Source: Patescibacteria group bacterium (lineage in GTDB: Bacteria > Patescibacteriota > Kazan-3B-28). From it: DNA of 64,000 nucleotides. Position 1 is the first letter of the stretch; each line of letters opens with the position of its first letter. The translations under genes and the position numbers were made by a program. Below are positions 10,439-19,011 of this stretch, piece by piece. Below the pieces are notes generated by a model. That model was given only the letters and a program-made list of their open reading frames with translations, made no database searches and was not told where the DNA came from. The stretch covers positions 27,668 to 91,667 of the forward strand of contig JAWKSK010000001.1 in NCBI GenBank assembly GCA_041389145.1, given 5' to 3'.

Positions 10439-10684
10439 CTAGAGTTTAAAGCGGTTTTTGAGACGTTTATAGATAATAAACTGGCTAACTGGGAATGCAA
10501 TCACTACTCCACCTATAAATAACCAGGGGGTAGTAGAAAATTGATTATCTAAATATTTACCAATAACTGCAAATATAAAAACTACTACTAGAATGGTTAG
10601 GGTTGCTTCAATCCAGCGTTTGGGTGCATCTGCAACGAAGCGGTGTGCTTGATCCTGAATTTCTTGTGGAGTTTTGTTTTGCAT
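10439..10684 (-). CDS. AtpZ/AtpI-like small membrane protein, first gene of the atp operon
   Basis: 81 aa with 2 predicted TM helices, immediately upstream of atpB. Confidence 0.6.
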   Translation of the reverse strand: MQNKTPQEIQDQAHRFVADAPKRWIEATLTILVVVFIFAVIGKYLDNQFSTTPWLFIGGVVIAFPVSQFIIYKRLKNRFKL

Positions 10685-10717
10685 ATGACAGCCTCCAAGT
10701 TAGCACAGTTACTCGAG

Positions 10718-10754
10718 AAATAAAAGAAAAAGAGTGGCCAGGGGACGGCCACTC
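10718..10754 (-). terminator. Intrinsic terminator after the 10808-11320 gene
   Basis: Minus strand GAGTGGCC-gtcccct-GGCCACTC followed by TTTTTCTTTTATTT. Confidence 0.8.
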
Positions 10755-10807
10755 GGAGGGTTGAGATGAAAGGGGATAGCTTATTTACCCCCTCCATGGG
10801 GTGCAAG

Positions 10808-11320
10808 TTACGCAGAAGCGGACTGAGTAGCAGCAGAATCCATTCTGCGGCGTTCAACCACTTCCGTGACGAATCCTGGCTGGTTGGCCTCAATTCGTCG
10901 AGTGATGGTAACGAGGATGGGAAGTTCCTTGATCTGAGGAAAGACTTCTTCGAGCTCGTTAACCATGCGGATGACATCAATTCGATGCTGCTCCAGGTCA
11001 CATGGGTGTCCAGCACACTCTTCGTGGACATCCAGATGAAGGCAACAGGTTGGGTGAGCAGTCATGTAGATGCTCATATCAGCAAGGAAAGATGCCTTGC
11101 GATGTCCTTTGGTGACTCCAAACTGAGGGTCGCCATGAGGAGCTTCGGGGTCAAAATCTGCCTTGAAGTAGGCATCCGGACCAGGTGCGGTAAGAGTATC
11201 GAAGTTGATAACTTCAGGAAACTCTTGTGTACGCAGCTCGTCAGTTGGATCCTGTACGCGACCGTCACCACAGGTGATGGTAAGACCGATTGAACCGTCT
11301 AGTCGTTGATCGTAAGCCAT
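10808..11320 (-). CDS. Hypothetical Cys/His-rich protein (GC-richer unit)
   Basis: 170 aa; TCGDGR plus AHPTCCLHLDVHEECAGHPCD, a possible metal site loosely like the CxDxR/HxxC pair. Followed by its own terminator. Confidence 0.65.
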   Translation of the reverse strand: MAYDQRLDGSIGLTITCGDGRVQDPTDELRTQEFPEVINFDTLTAPGPDAYFKADFDPEAPHGDPQFGVTKGHRKASFLADMSIYMTAHPTCCLHLDVHEECAGHPCDLEQHRIDVIRMVNELEEVFPQIKELPILVTITRRIEANQPGFVTEVVERRRMDSAATQSASA

Positions 11321-13688: not shown

Positions 13689-14240
13689 TTAACGCAGATA
13701 ATCCTCCCACTTCTCGCGAAAGCGCTTGAAGTTGAAGTGCTTGACGATGATCAGGCTGGCCTGGTTGTCCACCAAGCGGTAGATAACCAGTGGACTTGTG
13801 GTGCACTCATTGTTGTCGAGGAACCATTCCCCAACGTTGAGGTCTGGGAATTCTCCACCCATAGCTTCGGATGAATAATCCCGGGCTACAATACCGTTTG
13901 CCAGTTTAATCGTGCCTCGATGATCAAGCTCAATGCGCTCATACAGGGGTACGGATGTCCAGAAACTATCGGCGAAATTGACGAACATCCCATCGGCGTG
14001 GTCGCCGGGTTCGTTTTCCACAACACCAACCAAGTTCTCGATTGGCTCATGGAAAGCAACGATGAAGTCTTCTAGCCTCACTATCTCGGAAGGCAGAACC
14101 GTGTCATCTCGATAGATGGTGCGTTCAACGCCTCCACCAATAAGTCTTGAGAAGTATTCCGGCATCGGAATAATCCTCATTGCAGGAAAATCTCTCACAA
14201 GCTTTTCCCACTGCTTTTTTGAAGTAATATGAACCATCAT
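13689..14240 (-). CDS. Hypothetical protein (GC-richer unit); weak SUKH/SMI1-like pattern
   Basis: 183 aa; strong SD GGAGGGGGAG; own promoter and terminator. WEKLVRDFPAMRIIPMPEYFSRLIGGG loosely resembles the SMI1/KNR4 N-terminus. Confidence 0.7.
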   Translation of the reverse strand: MMVHITSKKQWEKLVRDFPAMRIIPMPEYFSRLIGGGVERTIYRDDTVLPSEIVRLEDFIVAFHEPIENLVGVVENEPGDHADGMFVNFADSFWTSVPLYERIELDHRGTIKLANGIVARDYSSEAMGGEFPDLNVGEWFLDNNECTTSPLVIYRLVDNQASLIIVKHFNFKRFREKWEDYLR

Positions 14241-14390: not shown

Positions 14391-14414
14391 TTAACGGCTC
14401 ATTATTTTGAGCCG
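14391..14414. repeat. REP-like hairpin, copy 2 (AACGGCTCA-ttattt-TGAGCCGTT), overlapping the dus stop codon
   Basis: Same arms as the copies at 3800 and 45549. Encodes the last codons ..SNGSK* of the dus remnant. Confidence 0.75.
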
Positions 14415-15391
14415 TTGGAGTAAAGGAAGTTTTCTACGATCTGAGAAAGTTGCTCATAATCTGTTGCTTCCATAAGTTCTGCTCTGACCTTAGCGGCACC
14501 ATCAAAGCCGTTAACGTAGGCTTTGTAGTGCTTTTTCATAATATCTAAAGGTTTAATCTCCCCTAATAGATCTATGTAGAGTTTGGTGTGTTCTAACATT
14601 ACACGCAGTTTTTCAGCTACTGGGAGGTTTTCAACATCTACCTCTTCGTTATACAGCCAAGGATTACCAAAAATACCACGGCCAATCATAACTCCATCAC
14701 ATCCAGTCTCCTCTACTCTGGCCTTAGCTTCTTCTAAGTTTTGGACATCCCCATTGCCAAAGATAAGGGGTCGGTCTTTGGGGTCTGGGAAGAGTTCATG
14801 AGCGATTTCTACAGCTCGTTTAATGGTGCCCCATCTTGCAGGAACCTTAGACATTTCATTACGAGTACGGGCATGAATAGTTAATACGGCAGGTTGGGCT
14901 TCAATTAGCATTCTAATCCAGGTTTCGGTTTCGTCTTCACGGTATCCAGATTCAACATAATGTAACGGATACTGTAGATCACCAGCACCTGCCTTAGTAG
15001 CTACAACAACTTTTACTAGTTGTGTAAGTGCTTAATCAATCCAGCTCCAGCTAATGACTTTTCAATATCTTTAGAAGGACATCCTATATTGATATCAATT
15101 CCATCAAAACCAAGCTCTGCTATTGAGAGTTCTGCGGCTTTAGTAAAGTTTGGTTTACCACCAAAGATTTGAGCTACGATAGGTCGCTCTGATTCATCAA
15201 CCAAAGATCCGGTAACAGATTCTTTCCACCCCTCGGCCATCATAACAGACAAATTCGTCCATAAAACAGCGGTTTGCTAGTATTTGGCAATTAATTATCA
15301 ATGCGGCGTCGGTGACATCTGCTATAGGCGCTTGCACCATAATTGGTGTTGGCAAAATTGGCCCAAAATCCTTTGTGGATGCTATTTTCAT
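14402..15391 (-). pseudogene. dus: tRNA-dihydrouridine synthase, disrupted by at least 2 frameshifts
   Basis: Three fragments in different frames: MKIASTKDFGPILPTPIMVQAPIADVTDAA.. (15391 downward), ..ERPIVAQIFGGKP..IDINIGCP.. (15252-15016, ending in TAG TAA), and VKVVVATKAG..LTIHARTR..MIGRGIFGNPW (from about 15010 to 14402). Confidence 0.8.
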
Positions 15392-15412
15392 CCCAAATAA
15401 CCAATATATACT

Positions 15413-15454
15413 ACGGAAAGAAAAGAGGGTCGCTGCGGTGAGCAGCAACCCTCT
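15413..15454 (-). terminator. Strong intrinsic terminator closing the candidate RNA
   Basis: Minus strand AGAGGGTtGCTGC-tcacc-GCAGCgACCCTCT followed by TTTCTTTCC. Confidence 0.8.
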
Positions 15455-15881
15455 GACTTAAACCTTTAACAGGTGTAGCTTGTGGAAACACCTGCATAGG
15501 TAGATCCCCTGGGTATCCCTTAAGTCTATGGAGGAAGCAAGGTATGATACGGTATCTGCTAGAGAAGCTACCGACCGGCAAGCCCGCAGCTTTGCCTTGG
15601 GAGGCGAAGGGGGTTATGGGAAAACGGGAAATTGGAGTAGTTGGTAGCCAAAGCTTGAGTAAAGCCCGGGAGTTGATGACGGGATCACGTTGAATTTGTT
15701 CACCAACTCCCTAGACCTAAGCTTTTGAGGTAGCTTGCGCCCACCAGATACGGGATGGATGACCCGGTGGGGTATTTGTTGATAACTCACTTCAGGTTAC
15801 ATTTGGGGAATGAGTAAAGGGCAGGCTCCAGGTCATGCCTGGTTTATCTTTTTCCTATTTTCCAATCAAGGTTCGTGTGTT
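15455..15881 (-). ncRNA. Candidate structured RNA of unknown class (about 430 nt)
   Basis: No ORF on either strand. Many local helices, e.g. CCAGG/CCUGG, CCCACC..GGUGGG, GGGAGUUG..CAACUCCC, GGCAA..UUGCC, CAGGUG..CACCUG. Extended -10 (TGGTATATT, plus-strand 15888-15896) upstream and a terminator downstream. G-U pairs favour the minus strand. Confidence 0.5.
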
Positions 15882-16540
15882 ACCGGCAATATACCACAAA
15901 ATTATGAGAAAATAAAGACATGAATAAAAATCAATATTGGAATAGGGATTGGCGCATATTGGGAATTATAGTTTGTGGGGTAAAATAAAGAGTAATTCAC
16001 CAGTTGCAGAAATGTTAAAGAAAAGCTTGCCGCAAGTAGTGAGTGGTGAGCAGAAAATATACACTGCACAATTTCCAGGAATAGATAATCATTATAATTT
16101 TGATCTGTAATACCTTCTAGTTGGAAAGCAGAAGCAGTACCTGCGATAGATGCAATTAATTTCTACGATCCAAGAACAGAAGGAAGTAACTTAGAGCAAT
16201 CTCTGAATATTTGTATGTATTTTACAGCAAGTAGATTCCTAACTCACCACCGTGGATATTTTGGAACCAAAGAGAACTTGAGGTAGGAAGACCAGCGGTG
16301 GAATATGAGATTAAAAGCAGCTGGGATTGCTAACTTTGCAAGCTAGCCTAGCTGAGAAGGAACAACATATAGTTATAGATGTTCTAAAGTAACAGCAGCA
16401 ATAGCACATTCTATGTAATTGCAAAAACCCACAGTTAAGTGATGTTGTGTATCAAAGTTTTTAGACAACTTAGATTTAGATCCAAGTGAATGAAATTAGT
16501 TGGGCAGATCCAATTGCAGATTGGAAAAGGAGTGACCAAG

Positions 16541-16975
16541 AAACCGTTTGGAATTTACATCACACCTGCTACGTCCCCAGTTCAACCGAAAGTTTTGAAG
16601 GATATCACACGGCTATCGAGCAGAGTATGAAGATGGTGATGACCTGTCCCATATGTAATTGCTAATGGGAAACAGTTATTGCAAAAGCTGCTCAGGGATA
16701 TGGTAGTGATTGTGATAGACTACAGACCTTGGGCTGAAGTATATTCCTATATGCATATACAACAATCGATGTACTACTGACCAAGGGCAGGAACTATAGT
16801 TGGAGCAGGTGAAGAGATAGGAACATTAGCAGAGGGCTTTACACGCGCTTCTGGTGGTGAGAGAAAGCATCTGCATTTTGGAATGATAACAAATACCCAA
16901 CCACTATTGGCTGGGTATGTTGCAAATGAGTCAGAACTTACAAGCTGGTTAGATCCAGCAACAATTTTAGACTAG
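16541..16975 (+). pseudogene. M23 (LytM) family metallopeptidase remnant
   Basis: Own translation gives ESFEGYHTAIE (HxxxD-like), ..VIVIDYRPWAEVYSYMH.., an in-frame TGA at 16778, then AGTIVGAGEEIGTLAEGF..GGERKHLHFGMI. Several stops and frame changes. Region 15900-16540 is also ORF-free and probably the decayed N-terminus. Confidence 0.7.
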
Positions 16976-17215
16976 GTTAAGTTCAACGAGTCGATAAATT
17001 GTAATTGCTCCCCAGGCAAATTGCATAGCCAACACTCCGTAGGCTTTTTTGCGATAGACAGAAGCCCCAATTAAGACTGGAGGAAATAGATTCATAATCC
17101 AGTAGCCTTGATCCTGAGTGGTAAAGAAACTAGAGGCGAGTAAGAAATATGCGGAGAGGGCAATAATGGCCCCAATCCAATCAAGATGAGGCACTAGTTT
17201 GTTAATGGTTTTCAT
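16967..17215 (-). CDS. Small 3-TM membrane protein
   Basis: 82 aa hydrophobic protein, immediately downstream of the ABC transporter gene. Confidence 0.6.
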   Translation of the reverse strand: MKTINKLVPHLDWIGAIIALSAYFLLASSFFTTQDQGYWIMNLFPPVLIGASVYRKKAYGVLAMQFAWGAITIYRLVELNLV

Positions 17216-17229
17216 GAGCTAATTATACC

Positions 17230-19011
17230 CTAACTTTCAGCAGATTGCTGACGCCAGAGAGCTTGGTATAGCCCTTGTTTATCAATGAGTTGTTGATGGC
17301 TTCCGGATTCAACCACTCTTCCCTTCTCCATAACGTAGATTGTGTTGGCATGAGAAATAGTAGAAAGGCGGTGAGCAACCATGATGGTGATGAGGTCTGG
17401 ATGTTGGGTGGTTACATGTTTAATGGTTTCAGTAATTTCTGATTCGGTAATGGAATCAAGGGCTGAGGTTGCCTCATCAAAGATTAAAACTTCTGGGTTG
17501 CGGAGTAGAGCTCGAGCGATGGCTAAGCGCTGTTTTTCACCACCAGATAGTTTAACTCCCCCTTCACCAATCTTTGTATCAAGACCATTGGCACCTTCTT
17601 TAGAAATAATTGGCATAGCTTGGGCAGATGCCAACACTTCTAAACACTGTTGGTCGGTAGCGGCAGGGTTTACGAATTTAAGGTTTTCTCTAATGGTTCC
17701 GACAAATAGCTGTGTTTCCTGGGAGACAAATCCAACTTTACGACGGAAAATATCTAAATCAATTTGAGAGGTTGGAATGTTGTTAATCAGAATTTGACCG
17801 GTGGTTGGCTGATAGAGACCAACTAGGAGTTTTACTAAGGTTGATTTACCAGAACCTGAAGGACCAACTAGAGCAATTGTCTGACCGGCATTAATATCAA
17901 TAGAGATATCTTTAAGAGAAGCTCCAAGTTCTGGAGAGTAGGTAAAGTTGAGGTCTTTAATTTGGATATGATTTACAACACCAGTTTCTTTGGTATCGGT
18001 AGGCTTTGGTTCTGGCTCTTTGTTAAGAATAGTCTCCAACTGCTCAAGACTAGCTTTAGCTTCCTGGTACTGGGAGGAAACATTTCCAAGTTCAGCTAAT
18101 GGACCAAAGATGAAGAAGGAGTAGAAGAGCAAGCTAAAGAGCTGTCCGAGAGATAGATCTCCAGTTGAGATAAGCCAAAGCATGAGGAATAAAATAGAAC
18201 CACGGGAGGCGTTGATAATAGTTCCCTGTAGGAAGCTTAGAGTTCTAATAACTCTAATCTTGTATAGTTCTAGGTCTAAGATTTTGGAGTTAACCGTGTT
18301 TAGTCTGGTTACCTCTTGGTTTTCTAAACCAAGACTTTTTACCAGTTCTACGTTTCTTAAGGTTTCGGTAGTGGATCCAGAAAGTTCTGCGGTTTGAGCA
18401 ACGATAGTTTTTTGAAGTGTTCTAATCCTCCTAGTAAGCAAGAAGGTGGAAACTCCAAGAACCGGAATAAGCAAGGTGTATGCAGCCCCTACCCGCCAAT
18501 CTACATAAAAGGCATACCCCAGAACAAAAACGATACCAACTAATGAGAGGAACATGACGTTGACGAAGTTGGTGATCATGATCTGTACATCATTTCTGGC
18601 CTTTTGGAGCTTTAATAAAAGTTCACCAGAGCTATGATCTTCAAATTCACTGTAGGCTAAGGAGAAGGCATGGGCTACCGAATACTCATAGAGCTGTGTG
18701 GATACCTTCTGAGTAATAAAGTTGACGTAGTAGTCTTGGAAGTTCTTGGCGAGTCTTGAAACAAATGCCACACCAACAGATGCAAGCATCAACCAAAGCA
18801 CACCTCGAAGAAAGACCTCAGGTGTTAGTTCGTTAGCCTTAGTGGCATAGTTGTCGACCAACAGTCTAAAGATCTGTGGGTCAAGCAAAGAAAATACTTG
18901 GTTGATGGTGGCTAAAACTAGGGCCAGCACCATGTACCACTTATATGGCCTTAAAAATGAGAAGATTAATTTCACAAAAGGATTATATGGTTTGAGATAA
19001 GGGTTTGGCAA
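17230..19011 (-). CDS. ABC transporter, fused permease/ATP-binding (MsbA-like exporter)
   Basis: 593 aa; Walker A GPSGSGKST, signature LSGGEKQR, Walker B LIFDEATSALD; 6 N-terminal TM helices. Confidence 0.93.
   Translation of the reverse strand: MPNPYLKPYNPFVKLIFSFLRPYKWYMVLALVLATINQVFSLLDPQIFRLLVDNYATKANELTPEVFLRGVLWLMLASVGVAFVSRLAKNFQDYYVNFITQKVSTQLYEYSVAHAFSLAYSEFEDHSSGELLLKLQKARNDVQIMITNFVNVMFLSLVGIVFVLGYAFYVDWRVGAAYTLLIPVLGVSTFLLTRRIRTLQKTIVAQTAELSGSTTETLRNVELVKSLGLENQEVTRLNTVNSKILDLELYKIRVIRTLSFLQGTIINASRGSILFLMLWLISTGDLSLGQLFSLLFYSFFIFGPLAELGNVSSQYQEAKASLEQLETILNKEPEPKPTDTKETGVVNHIQIKDLNFTYSPELGASLKDISIDINAGQTIALVGPSGSGKSTLVKLLVGLYQPTTGQILINNIPTSQIDLDIFRRKVGFVSQETQLFVGTIRENLKFVNPAATDQQCLEVLASAQAMPIISKEGANGLDTKIGEGGVKLSGGEKQRLAIARALLRNPEVLIFDEATSALDSITESEITETIKHVTTQHPDLITIMVAHRLSTISHANTIYVMEKGRVVESGSHQQLIDKQGLYQALWRQQSAES

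What the first reader, a model, noticed from the sequence alone, without database searches (positions are those of the whole stretch)
15413..15896. Unclassified roughly 430-nt structured RNA candidate with its own promoter and terminator
The region has no ORF on either strand but is dense in helices. Minus-strand examples are CCAGG/CCUGG, CCCACC(GGG)..(CCC)..GGUGGG, GGGAGUUG..CAACUCCC, GGCUACC..GGUAGC, GGCAA..UUGCC, CAUAG..CUAUG and CAGGUG..CACCUG. It also has a striking C/U-rich single-stranded stretch (CUACUCCAAUUUCCCGUUUUCCCAUAACCCCCUUCGCCUCCC) containing several anti-SD-like CCUCC/CCCC runs. An extended -10 (TGGTATATT) lies upstream, and a 12-bp-stem terminator with a U-run closes it. Several G-U pairs work only on the minus strand. 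It sits directly upstream of the decayed dus gene. I could not match it to RNase P, tmRNA, SRP, 6S, T-box or common riboswitch signatures by eye.
Basis: partly seen in the sequence, partly recalled or inferred. Interest (0 to 1): 0.6.

Follow-up and report, generated by a model that had tools for sequence, protein, structure and literature searches.

The report
Unclassified structured RNA gene beside dus
A roughly 465-base non-coding RNA gene in an uncultured Patescibacteria genome keeps its folded shape in a sister species through matched base changes and fits no catalogued RNA family, so it looks like a real, new, lineage-restricted RNA whose job is still unknown.

Summary
Window 15415-15880 (minus strand) is an ORF-free, GC-rich island in the 525-nt gap between two decayed genes: an M23 peptidase on the plus strand and dus on the minus strand.

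- **Boundaries:** it has an extended -10 (TGGTATATT) and a 13-bp intrinsic terminator.
- **Known families:** no Rfam 15 family matches at any useful score. ARAGORN and phage, plasmid and viral searches also find nothing.
- **Conservation:** a sister species (L088/L093) has both flanking genes intact and carries the same element in the same place and strand. Blocks of 100% identity alternate with rewritten hairpins. All 100 consensus pairs are kept, and 16 carry compensatory double changes (1-2 in slid controls).
- **Strand:** the dus-sense strand is favoured.
- **Wider family:** more distant relatives (L082, L085+L090, L091) also have strongly structured RNAs (z -6 to -8) directly upstream of dus. 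Similarity to the window RNA is limited to architecture and short motifs.
three of its seven helices are not conserved, and its single-stranded anti-SD idea is unsupported.
- **Function:** I favour a stand-alone structured RNA sharing a transcription unit with dus over a dus attenuator. This is inference only.
- **Caveat:** the window copy folds much more weakly than its sister (z -3.5 vs -12.7).

The parts
15888..15896 (-). Extended -10 promoter element TGGTATATT (TGn + TATATT). The predicted transcription start is about 15880.
   Evidence: Read from the sequence. It is unique in the window and identical in the sister species L088 within a fully conserved block. The genome uses sigma-70-like promoters: a tRNA gene has TTGACT-17-TAAGAT upstream. 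The start site is inferred, not measured.
15415..15880 (-). Predicted transcript of the structured non-coding RNA, about 465 nt.
   Evidence: MFE z -3.48 on this strand. The consensus structure with L088 has 100 pairs, all kept, with 16 compensatory. No Rfam family matches. There is no conserved ORF.
15868..15874 (-). P1 5' strand GAACCUU, the closing helix. It pairs with 15460-15466.
   Evidence: Present in the window MFE. Kept in L088 with one compatible change, U-A to U-G. The same GAACCUU / ARGGU pair of segments sits at equivalent places in the distant type B RNAs.
15460..15466 (-). P1 3' strand AAGGUUU.
15851..15863 (-). P2 5' strand GGAAAAUAGGAAA, a long-range helix that closes the 5' domain.
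   Evidence: RNAalifold gives 12 pairs, invariant in both species. No covariation is available for this helix.
15619..15631 (-). P2 3' strand UUUCCCGUUUUCC.
   Evidence: The related motif CCCGUUUUUCC occurs in type B RNAs, where UUCCGC pairs with GCGGAA.
15828..15842 (-). P3 hairpin CCAGG-CAUGA-CCUGG.
   Evidence: The stem is invariant and the loop varies. On the plus strand the same hairpin scores as a weak terminator-like site.
15740..15771 (-). P4 hairpin CCCACCGGGU ... AUCUGGUGGG.
   Evidence: 10 pairs, with 1 compensatory and 2 one-sided compatible changes. L088 has an 11-nt insertion in the loop.
15664..15716 (-). P5 hairpin, GUCUAGGGAGUUGGUGA ... UCAUCAACUCCCGGGC. Its sequence is rewritten between species but its shape is kept.
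   Evidence: 16 pairs, 8 with compensatory double changes and none broken. Loop length differs by 11 nt.
15594..15618 (-). Conserved C-rich block CAUAACCCCCUUCGCCUCCCAAGGC, which includes the small hairpin P6 (GCCU/AGGC).
   Evidence: The core CCCCCUUCGCCUCC is identical in window and L088. P6 is 4 bp here and 6 bp (GCCUCC/GGAGGC) in L088.
15567..15590 (-). P7 hairpin GCUGCGGGCU ... GGUCGGUAGC, followed by UUCUCU.
   Evidence: 11 pairs with 4 compensatory. Both strands carry matched length changes relative to L088. The positional counterpart in type B is a terminator-like hairpin followed by UUUCUUUCU.
15505..15566 (-). P8 domain: UUCUCU/AGGGGA enclosing GUAUC/GAUAC.
   Evidence: P8 has 6 pairs with 1 compensatory and 1 one-sided change. 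The inner helix is 5 pairs and invariant. It is 7 bp in L088, and the window has a C-to-A mismatch there.
15469..15495 (-). P9 hairpin GCAGGUG-UUUCCACAAGCUA-CACCUGU with a conserved loop.
   Evidence: 9 pairs, with 1 compensatory and 2 one-sided changes. The loop sequence is conserved.
15415..15454 (-). Intrinsic terminator: 13-bp stem, 5-nt loop, then UUUUCUUUCC.
   Evidence: Found by the terminator scan. The hairpin alone has -24.4 kcal/mol. It is conserved in L088 with one compatible change.
14402..15390 (-). dus pseudogene downstream, broken by at least two frameshifts. It starts 34 nt after the terminator stem.
   Evidence: Pfam Dus hits are split over separate ORFs. tblastn with an intact relative's Dus gives pieces in different frames. 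The gene is intact in the sister species: P0242, 94.7% identical over the last 169 aa.
15917..16976 (+). Decayed M23 peptidase gene, divergent from the RNA.
   Evidence: tblastn with the relative's protein shows many stops and frame changes. The sister species has an intact 359-aa gene.

Best explanation
**What it is.** Window ~15880 to ~15415 on the minus strand is a genuine non-coding RNA gene of about 465 nt. It occurs in a narrow Patescibacteria (CPR) lineage.

**Shown here:**
- It is transcribed from its own extended -10 promoter and ends at a strong intrinsic terminator.
- It folds into a closed multi-helix architecture. An outer helix P1 and a 12-bp long-range helix P2 enclose a 5' domain with hairpins P3-P5. 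A 3' domain (P6-P9) follows, then the terminator.
- Evolution preserves the helices by compensatory change and preserves several unpaired blocks exactly.
- It belongs to no catalogued RNA family.

**Inferred, not shown:**
- It works as a stand-alone structured RNA, as a protein-binding scaffold or a trans-acting RNA that uses its invariant loops and C-rich blocks.
- It merely shares a transcription unit with the downstream tRNA-dihydrouridine synthase gene through terminator read-through. From my own knowledge, 6S RNA sits upstream of ygfA in enterobacteria in a comparable way.
- It is not a dus-specific switch.
For: **Not a known family.**
- No Rfam 15 family reaches threshold, and nothing relevant appears even at E<=10 in the window, the sister species or the distant relatives.
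- ARAGORN finds nothing.
- Phage, plasmid and viral-contig searches find nothing.

**Conservation in the sister species.**
- L088 (identical in L093; L089 is partial) has the element between an intact M23 gene and an intact dus, on the same strand.
- Identity is mosaic: promoter, loops and terminator are near 100%, while hairpins are rewritten.
- All 100 consensus pairs are kept. 16 have double compensatory changes, against 1-2 when partners are slid by 1-3 columns.

**Strand.**
- Sense consensus energy is -137.3 with 16 compensatory pairs. Antisense is -113.1 with 9.
- z-scores in L088 are -12.7 sense and -6.5 antisense.

**Still under selection in this genome.**
- Third codon positions are close to saturation: my estimate is about 45-50% identity, derived from 80-82% nucleotide and ~95% protein identity. 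The RNA is 70% identical.
- Both flanking pseudogenes drift toward AT: dus 93 vs 59 substitutions, M23 125 vs 100. The RNA does not (53 vs 54), like the intact ABC control (122 vs 115).

**Independent unit.**
- It has its own promoter here.
- Type B relatives have a strong TAGACA-17-TAAAAT / TAGAAT promoter right after the spoU stop codon (sequences).

**Argues against a dus-only role.**
- The RNA is kept although dus is dead in this genome.
- A forced antiterminator is 15 kcal/mol worse than the terminator fold.
Against: - **Shallow sampling:** only two distinct sequences of this type exist in everything I could reach, so no statistical covariation test (R-scape style) is possible.
- **No expression data:** nothing shows the RNA is transcribed.
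- **Weaker copy here:** the window copy is about 47 kcal/mol less stable than the sister copy (z -3.5 vs -12.7). It fails 33 of 155 pairs of the sister's single-sequence fold, plus 16 at gaps. The reverse comparison gives 20 broken and 4 at gaps of 142. The window copy may therefore be partly relaxed.
- **Constant linkage to dus:** all three divergent RNA types lie immediately upstream of dus on the same strand, with the terminator 33-60 nt from the start codon. In L090 there is little room for a separate dus promoter. This fits a cis-acting leader as well.
- **No partner or target:** the stand-alone mechanism has no direct support, because no partner protein or target was identified.
- **Uncertain wider homology:** homology between the window type and the distant types rests only on position, architecture and short motifs. 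The covariance model from the window type scores just 3.6 bits at the right place in L082.
Confidence: 0.6

Rival explanations
1. It is a long cis-acting 5' leader (transcription attenuator) of dus. The RNA senses some signal, perhaps tRNA or a protein, and the terminator just before the start codon decides whether dus is transcribed.
For: - The RNA is directly upstream of dus on the same strand in all three divergent lineages, although the gene on the other side differs. That gene is a divergent M23 here and a co-oriented spoU in L082/L085.
- The terminator ends 33-60 nt before the dus start codon.
- No convincing separate dus promoter is seen in L090.
- This genome has lost dus, and its copy of the RNA folds much more weakly than the sister copy.
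Against: - At 465-590 nt it is far larger than known riboswitch or T-box leaders.
- Its sequence evolves so fast that the lineage types are not alignable. Ligand-binding cores are normally highly conserved (my own knowledge).
- No competing antiterminator was found, and the best candidate costs 15 kcal/mol.
- The RNA shows no AT drift while the dus pseudogene does.
- -10-like elements (TATATA here, TATGAT in L088) lie between the terminator and dus.
- Most Patescibacteria dus genes have short upstream gaps with nothing comparable.
Confidence: 0.2
2. The RNA family is real, but the copy in this window is a dying relic. The whole M23-RNA-dus block is decaying in this genome, and the RNA only looks intact because it is short and its helices are robust.
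For: - Both flanking genes are pseudogenes.
- The window copy has z -3.5 and MFE -153 kcal/mol. The sister copy has z -12.7 and -200 kcal/mol.
- The window breaks 33 of the sister's 155 single-sequence MFE pairs, against 20 of 142 in the reverse test.
- Several helices are shorter or carry mismatches here. Examples are P6 at 4 vs 6 bp, a G-G mismatch in P7, and GUAUCAU vs GUAUCCC in P8.
Against: - The promoter -10 and the terminator are intact.
- Every helix of the two-species consensus still pairs.
- There is no AT-ward substitution bias, unlike both pseudogenes.
- The P7 strands carry matched length changes that keep the helix.
- Single-sequence MFE pairs of the very stable sister copy need not all be functional.
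Confidence: 0.13
3. The functional strand is the plus strand: an antisense transcript or a leader of the M23 peptidase gene. It would use the plus-strand promoter-like site at 15385-15412 and the terminator-like hairpin at 15828-15842.
For: - The consensus scan finds a plus-strand promoter-like site (TTTTCA-16-TATACT) and a weak terminator-like hairpin just upstream of the M23 start.
- The plus strand also folds fairly well.
Against: - The antisense consensus is weaker: -113.1 vs -137.3 kcal/mol, with 9 vs 16 compensatory pairs.
- z-scores are about half those of the sense strand.
- By my count from the pair table, about 14% of consensus pair cells are G-U. These would be A-C mismatches on the plus strand.
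- In type B relatives M23 is not adjacent to the RNA at all.
Confidence: 0.04
4. It is debris of protein-coding genes. Candidates are the mscS and spoU genes that sit between M23 and dus in more distant relatives.
For: - The locus is rich in pseudogenes.
- L082 and L085 have mscS and spoU between M23 and the RNA.
Against: - tblastn with the L082 mscS, SpoU and other proteins finds nothing significant in 15300-16100.
- No Pfam hits to its ORFs.
- In L082/L085 the structured RNA lies in addition to, and downstream of, those genes.
- The compensatory pair changes are an RNA signature, not a coding one.
Confidence: 0.03

Closest known systems
Large 'ornate' bacterial non-coding RNAs of unknown or partly known function (OLE, ROOL, GOLLD, raiA; Rfam families)
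   Same: - It is several hundred nucleotides long.
- It has a multi-helix closed architecture with long-range helices.
- Invariant unpaired blocks lie between covarying stems.
- It has its own transcription signals.
- Its distribution is restricted to a lineage.
   Different: - No sequence or structure match to any of them: cmscan finds nothing even at E<=10.
- It is found in Patescibacteria.
- It is much narrower in distribution and evolves much faster. Types from genomes whose Dus proteins are about 68% identical cannot be aligned.
- It is always next to dus.
6S RNA (ssrS) upstream of ygfA in enterobacteria: a stand-alone RNA that shares a transcription unit with the next gene (from my own knowledge)
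   Same: - A stable non-coding RNA gene with its own promoter sits directly upstream of, and co-oriented with, a protein gene.
- The linkage is conserved without the RNA being a sensor for that gene.
   Different: - No 6S-like long bulged hairpin, and no Rfam 6S hit.
- About 2.5 times longer.
- Here a strong intrinsic terminator separates the RNA from the gene.
- Co-transcription is not demonstrated.
Terminator-based 5' leaders (riboswitches, T-box leaders)
   Same: - A structured RNA closed by a P1-like helix.
- It ends in an intrinsic terminator a few tens of nucleotides before a start codon.
- The RNA-gene adjacency is conserved.
   Different: - Two to four times larger.
- No conserved core across lineages.
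- No T-box or riboswitch model hit.
- No credible antiterminator.
- It is retained where the downstream gene is dead.
Bacterial RNase P RNA
   Same: - Similar size (350-450 nt).
- Own promoter and terminator.
- A closing P1 helix with nested long-range helices.
- In type B relatives it sits between two tRNA-modification genes, spoU and dus.
   Different: - No hit to any RNase P model, even a weak one.
- The universal P4 sequences (GAGGAAAGUCC.. and ACAGAA..CGGCUUA) are absent on inspection.
- It is missing upstream of dus in most relatives.

Membership tests
Any Rfam 15 family (4227 covariance models) | Score at or above the family's gathering threshold. | tested here: not met
   - Whole window at gathering thresholds: only two tRNAs, both elsewhere.
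- Locus at E<=10: only chance-level matches, the best being H19_3 at 20.7 bits against a threshold of 46.
- Sister copy: best match is SAM-Chlorobi at 23.9 vs 35, covering just the P5 hairpin.
- Type B and type C: nothing.
Bacterial RNase P RNA | Conserved P4 pseudoknot sequences (CR-I, CR-V) and the P1-P4 / P7-P12 / P15 architecture. | tested here: not met
   No RNase P model hit at E<=10 on either strand. The CR-I and CR-V consensus strings are not present in the sequence read.
tmRNA | tRNA-like domain plus a tag-peptide reading frame. | tested here: not met
   ARAGORN finds no tRNA or tmRNA in 15000-16300. There is no Rfam tmRNA hit.
6S RNA | An approximately 180-nt extended hairpin with a central bubble. 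| tested here: not met
   No Rfam 6S hit. The predicted architecture is a multi-domain fold of 465 nt.
T-box / riboswitch attenuator leaders | A conserved sensing core matching a known model. | tested here: not met
   No model hit. The sequence is not conserved across lineage types.
T-box / riboswitch attenuator leaders | Mutually exclusive terminator and antiterminator pairings. | tested here: inconclusive
   The best candidate pairs the 5' AACCUUGAUU with AGUCAGAGGGUU, which overlaps the terminator arm. It costs 15.1 kcal/mol in the window and 9.1 in L088 relative to the terminator fold. Not every alternative pairing was explored.
Large ornate RNAs (OLE, ROOL, GOLLD, raiA, HEARO) | Match to the family covariance model. 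| tested here: not met
   No hits at E<=10. The resemblance is only in size and general style of architecture.
Group I / group II intron or other ribozyme remnants | Catalytic core motifs (for example group II domain V) detectable by Rfam models. | tested here: not met
   No intron or ribozyme model hit. No reverse transcriptase or homing endonuclease gene lies nearby.
Transposon- or retron-associated guide RNAs (omega RNA of IscB/TnpB, retron msr/msd) | Adjacent iscB/tnpB or reverse transcriptase gene. | tested here: not met
   The neighbours are an ABC transporter, a small membrane ORF, an M23 pseudogene and a dus pseudogene. The same neighbours appear in relatives. There is no HEARO hit.
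Conserved structured non-coding RNA (generic criteria) | Helices maintained by compensatory substitutions in homologues beyond control levels. | tested here: met
   - Window type: 16 of 100 pairs have double changes, none are broken, and slid controls give 1-2.
- Type B pair: 11 of 137 pairs.
- Only two distinct sequences exist per type, so this is a count and not a statistical covariation test.
Conserved structured non-coding RNA (generic criteria) | Evidence of transcription with defined ends. | not testable with these tools
   No transcriptome data are available. The promoter and terminator are inferred from sequence and conservation only.

The most novel reading that the evidence does not exclude
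This is the founding example of a new class of large (about 465-590 nt), fast-evolving structured RNAs specific to one Patescibacteria lineage. It would be genetically coupled to the tRNA-dihydrouridine synthase gene and, in some members, flanked by a SpoU-type RNA methyltransferase gene as well. It might work with the tRNA-modification machinery, for example as a scaffold, decoy or sensor for Dus or tRNA. That would be a kind of RNA not described in any bacterium.
Probability: 0.3. Interest if true: 0.75.

Novelty: new member of a known kind. Interest (0 to 1): 0.6.

Why it matters
- **Rarity.** Bacterial structured RNAs longer than about 400 nt that are not rRNA, RNase P or tmRNA are rare, and each new class has been informative. 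As far as I could find, none has been described for the Candidate Phyla Radiation. CPR genomes are tiny and tightly packed, so a 0.5-kb non-coding gene is costly.
- **An unusual evolutionary mode.** Invariant loops are combined with wholesale compensatory rewriting of hairpins between close relatives.
- **A natural experiment.** The RNA has been kept while both protein neighbours decayed.
- **A testable lead.** The constant linkage to dus points to a possible connection with tRNA modification.
- **Limits.** The distribution is narrow, the sampling is shallow and the function is unknown.

Tried and rejected
**Known-family searches: no result.**
- Rfam at gathering and permissive thresholds on the window, the sister copy and two distant types.
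- ARAGORN.

**Homologue searches.**
- nhmmer and blastn of the RNA against 80 dus loci from GTDB genomes found nothing. Most of those loci have short gaps upstream of dus.
- The first protein search, with the dus fragment, missed the close relatives. A profile of window and L082 Dus found them.
- The metagenome pattern scan returned only the sister species again.
- Two viral-contig scans and the phage and plasmid blastn searches returned nothing.

**Protein-gene debris: rejected.** There is no translated similarity to mscS or spoU and no Pfam hits.

**Multi-copy or repeat element: rejected.**
- Several relatives' contigs break inside the RNA. The break points coincide with long perfect hairpins, so I read them as assembly artefacts.
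- There is only one copy in the window.

**Antiterminator (5' end pairing with the terminator arm): rejected.** It is energetically unfavourable.

**Anti-SD mimic: not supported**. In the sister copy CCUCC is paired within GCCUCC/GGAGGC.

**Hidden small ORF: rejected.** The 28-codon frame starting at AUGCAGGUG is broken by a 1-nt indel in the sister species.

**Homology between the window type and type B: not established.** The covariance model built from the window type finds the right place in L082, but at only 3.6 bits, E about 0.09.

**Literature searches:** four searches found no description of such an RNA.
Full report
**1. What is at the coordinates**

The window comes from a Patescibacteria (CPR) metagenome-assembled genome. 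The ABC transporter at 17230..19011 is 100% identical to an NCBI protein named 'MAG: Patescibacteria group bacterium'.

Coding density is high everywhere except 15031-17233. Three things fill that gap.

- **A broken dus gene** on the minus strand, 15390 down to 14402.
  - Pfam Dus hits fall in separate ORFs.
  - tblastn with an intact relative's Dus gives pieces in three frames, so there are at least two frameshifts.
- **A badly decayed M23 peptidase gene** on the plus strand, 15917-16976, with many stops and frame changes.
- **The candidate itself**, in the 525-nt divergent intergenic region between them.

The candidate region has these properties.

- It has only short ORFs without family hits.
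- GC is 0.48-0.50 against 0.43 for the window. It is the only long GC-rich gap in the window.
- The minus strand folds better than shuffles (z -3.48). The plus strand gives z -1.97.
- A 13-bp terminator hairpin with a U-tract lies at 15454..15424.
- TGGTATATT at 15896-15888 is an extended -10 and is unique in the window.
- A tRNA gene in the same window has TTGACT-17-TAAGAT upstream, so sigma-70-type signals are used here.
- I infer a start near 15880 and an end near 15415, which gives about 465 nt.

**2. Not a known family**

- Rfam 15 finds only two tRNAs elsewhere at gathering thresholds.
- At E<=10 on the locus it finds only chance-level matches.
- The better-preserved sister copy and the distant relatives also give nothing.
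- ARAGORN finds no tRNA or tmRNA.
- There is no similarity to phage or plasmid records.
- Conserved motifs have no exact match in viral contigs.
- Literature searches found no description of a large CPR RNA next to dus.

**3. Relatives**

- *Distant dus loci.* Eighty dus loci from species-representative genomes (at most 64% Dus identity) contain no match to the RNA. Most have short gaps upstream of dus.
- *Sister species.* I reached closer relatives through homologues of the ABC transporter and of Dus.
  - Locus L088 is from ENA. JGI contig L093 has an identical RNA region, and L089 is a partial copy.
  - It has an intact 359-aa M23 gene and an intact dus. Its Dus is 94.7% identical to the window's C-terminal fragment.
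  - The RNA lies between those two genes on the dus strand.
- *Type B.* L082, and L085+L090 (two contigs of one genome that overlap by 24 nt), have the order M23, mscS, spoU, a 0.6-kb non-coding stretch, then dus.
  - That stretch is strongly structured: z -8.4 sense and -4.85 antisense.
  - It has its own promoter, TAGACA-17-TAAAAT or TAGAAT, overlapping the spoU stop codon (sequences).
  - The two copies share 137 consensus pairs, 11 of them compensatory.
- *Type C.* L091 starts inside a similar element, and its upstream-of-dus stretch has z -6.4.
- *Relatives without the RNA.* L092 and L083/L084 have no such RNA upstream of dus.

**4. Conservation of the window type**

Nucleotide identity between window and sister:

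| Region | Identity (ungapped) |
|---|---|
| dus | 80% |
| M23 pseudogene | 71% |
| RNA | 70-71% |
| Intact ABC gene (vs L081) | 82% |

- The proteins are about 95% identical. I therefore estimate third codon positions at about 45-50% identity, close to saturation. The RNA is well above that neutral level.
- Its identity is mosaic. The promoter, several loops and junctions, and the terminator are nearly invariant. Some hairpins are completely rewritten.
- RNAalifold on the two sequences gives 110 pairs, 16 with changes on both sides that keep the pair, 10 with compatible one-sided changes, and none broken.
- I refined the structure in three ways, giving 100 pairs in 12 helices.
  - I removed two helices that lie in the promoter region.
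  - I took the closing helix P1 as GAACCUU/AAGGUUU, as in the window's own minimum-energy fold.
  - I added GUAUC/GAUAC.
- In the refined structure every cell is paired and 16 pairs are compensatory. Sliding the 3' partners by 1-3 columns gives 1-2.
- Hairpin P5 alone has 8 compensatory pairs, and P7 has 4.
- A stricter test folds each sequence alone and scores the other in that fold. It still finds 13-16 double compensations. It also finds 20 broken pairs (window fold tested in the sister) and 33 broken pairs (sister fold tested in the window).

**5. Strand**

- Sense consensus energy is -137.3 kcal/mol with 16 compensatory pairs. Antisense is -113.1 with 9.
- z-scores are about twice as negative on the dus strand in every lineage.
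- By my count from the pair table, about 14% of consensus pair cells are G-U. On the other strand these would be A-C mismatches.

**6. Is the window copy still functional?**

*Against:*
- It is about 47 kcal/mol weaker than the sister copy (z -3.5 vs -12.7).
- It has a few shortened or mismatched helices.
- Both neighbouring genes are dead.

*For:*
- The promoter and terminator are intact.
- All consensus helices pair.
- Where window and sister differ, the pseudogenes show an AT-ward bias in the window: dus 93 vs 59, M23 125 vs 100. The RNA shows none (53 vs 54), like the intact ABC gene (122 vs 115).

I conclude that the copy is probably still under selection, with some doubt.

**7. Architecture (window coordinates, minus strand)**

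| Element | Coordinates | Note |
|---|---|---|
| P1 | 15874-15868 with 15466-15460 | Closing helix |
| P2 | 15863-15851 with 15631-15619 | GGAAAAUAGGAAA / UUUCCCGUUUUCC |
| P3 | 15842-15828 | Hairpin |
| P4 | 15771-15740 | Hairpin |
| P5 | 15716-15664 | Rewritten hairpin |
| C-rich block with P6 | 15618-15594 | Conserved |
| P7 | 15590-15567 | Followed by UUCUCU |
| P8 | 15566-15505 | Encloses GUAUC/GAUAC |
| P9 | 15495-15469 | Conserved loop |
| Terminator | 15454-15415 | 13-bp stem |

Type B shows the same nesting.

- An outer helix ACCUU/AGGGU lies a few nucleotides before the terminator.
- A long-range two-part helix (AUAGA..GCGGAA with UUCCGC..UCUAU) closes the central domain.
- A hairpin followed by a UC-rich run comes next, then a 3' domain and the terminator.

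The two types share these strings at equivalent places:
- GAACCUU.AUU..AAAUAG near the 5' end;
- CCCGUUUU(U)CC at the 3' strand of the long-range helix;
- AGUCAG.GGG before the terminator (present in L082, not in L085+L090).

However, nhmmer and blastn find no similarity between the types. The covariance model of the window type scores only 3.6 bits at the right place in L082. Common ancestry of the types is therefore likely but not shown.

**8. How it most likely works**

*Shown:*
- It is a conserved, structured, non-coding element with promoter and terminator sequences.
- It is on the dus strand, immediately upstream of dus in three lineages.
- It is retained where dus is dead.

*Inferred:*
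- It is a stand-alone RNA. Its invariant unpaired blocks are ACUCAUUCCCCAA, AACAAAUACCCCACC, CCCCCUUCGCCUCC, UACCGUAUC and the P9 loop UUUCCACAAGCUA. These would be contact surfaces for a protein or for another nucleic acid, held in place by the covarying helices.
- dus is expressed either by read-through of the terminator or from a weak -10-like element between terminator and start codon (TATATA here, TATGAT in the sister).

The main rival is a giant attenuator leader for dus.
- The constant adjacency supports it.
- The size, the lack of a conserved core, the absence of a credible antiterminator and the retention of the RNA next to a dead dus all argue against it.

Neither reading can be decided without transcript data.

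**9. Rejected ideas**

- Debris of mscS or spoU.
- A multi-copy element. Contig breaks coincide with perfect hairpins, and there is one copy in the window.
- A hidden small ORF, which is frame-broken in the sister.
- An anti-SD mimic. SD use is weak, and CCUCC is paired in the sister copy.
- A plus-strand leader for M23 (section 5).

**10. Verdict**

I file it as a new family within a familiar kind: large structured intergenic bacterial RNAs of unknown function. Its distribution is very narrow and its function is unknown.

Interest is moderate to fairly high for RNA biologists and CPR genomicists. It is limited by shallow sampling (two distinct sequences per type) and the lack of expression data.

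Noticed in passing
window 15917-16976 (+): A heavily decayed M23 peptidase gene with many stop codons and frame changes. It is 71% identical in nucleotides to the intact 359-aa gene of the sister species. It is divergent from the RNA, and their promoters must overlap in about 40 nt.
   Followed up: yes
window 14402-15390 (-): dus is split by at least two frameshifts, yet its last 169 aa are still 94.7% identical to the intact sister protein. The inactivation therefore looks recent. Substitutions are biased toward AT (93 vs 59).
   Followed up: yes
window 13689-14240 (-): A 183-aa ORF with no Pfam hit and locally raised GC (about 0.50-0.51). It is not seen between dus and the GIY-YIG/YgjP gene in L082, L090 or L091, so it may have been acquired.
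   Followed up: no
window 10597-11320 (both strands): Three overlapping ORFs of 144-175 aa lie on both strands in one stretch. I did not work out which one, if any, is the real gene.
   Followed up: no
window 16967-17215 (-) and 16893-16918 (-): An 82-aa hydrophobic ORF directly after the ABC transporter, followed by a terminator-like hairpin. Relatives have a 78-aa DUF5652 protein at this position, but blastp found no similarity between the two.
   Followed up: partly
L082 9731-9765 and L085 5789-5825: The type B RNA promoter (TAGACA-17-TAAAAT or TAGAAT) uses the TAG stop codon of the upstream spoU gene as part of its -35 element.
   Followed up: partly
L082 10183-10217; L085+L090 composite: Type B RNAs contain an internal terminator-like hairpin (GAGCCGUUCC...GGAACGGCU followed by UUCUUUCU) about 150 nt before the final terminator. 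This suggests two transcript lengths. The window's P7 hairpin followed by UUCUCU is its positional counterpart.
   Followed up: partly
L085 end / L090 start; L089 start; L091 start: Several short-read contigs of relatives break inside the RNA, exactly at long perfect hairpins. Assemblies may therefore often miss or split this element, which could explain why so few copies are retrievable.
   Followed up: partly
L083 5360-14773 and L084 2706-12119: In a relative whose ABC transporter is 70% identical, the gene is followed by a block that looks like a prophage or mobile element. It carries Hcp, S24 peptidase, an N6/N4 methylase, a terminase large subunit and a serine recombinase. In that genome dus lies divergently upstream of the ABC gene and there is no RNA.
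   Followed up: no
window 15545-15556 and 15744-15755 (-): A short motif (C)CGUAUC occurs twice in the RNA, in the P4 loop and in the P8 domain. Both copies are conserved in the sister species, and the similar CCCGUUUUCC lies in P2. This could be a repeated protein-binding site.
   Followed up: no
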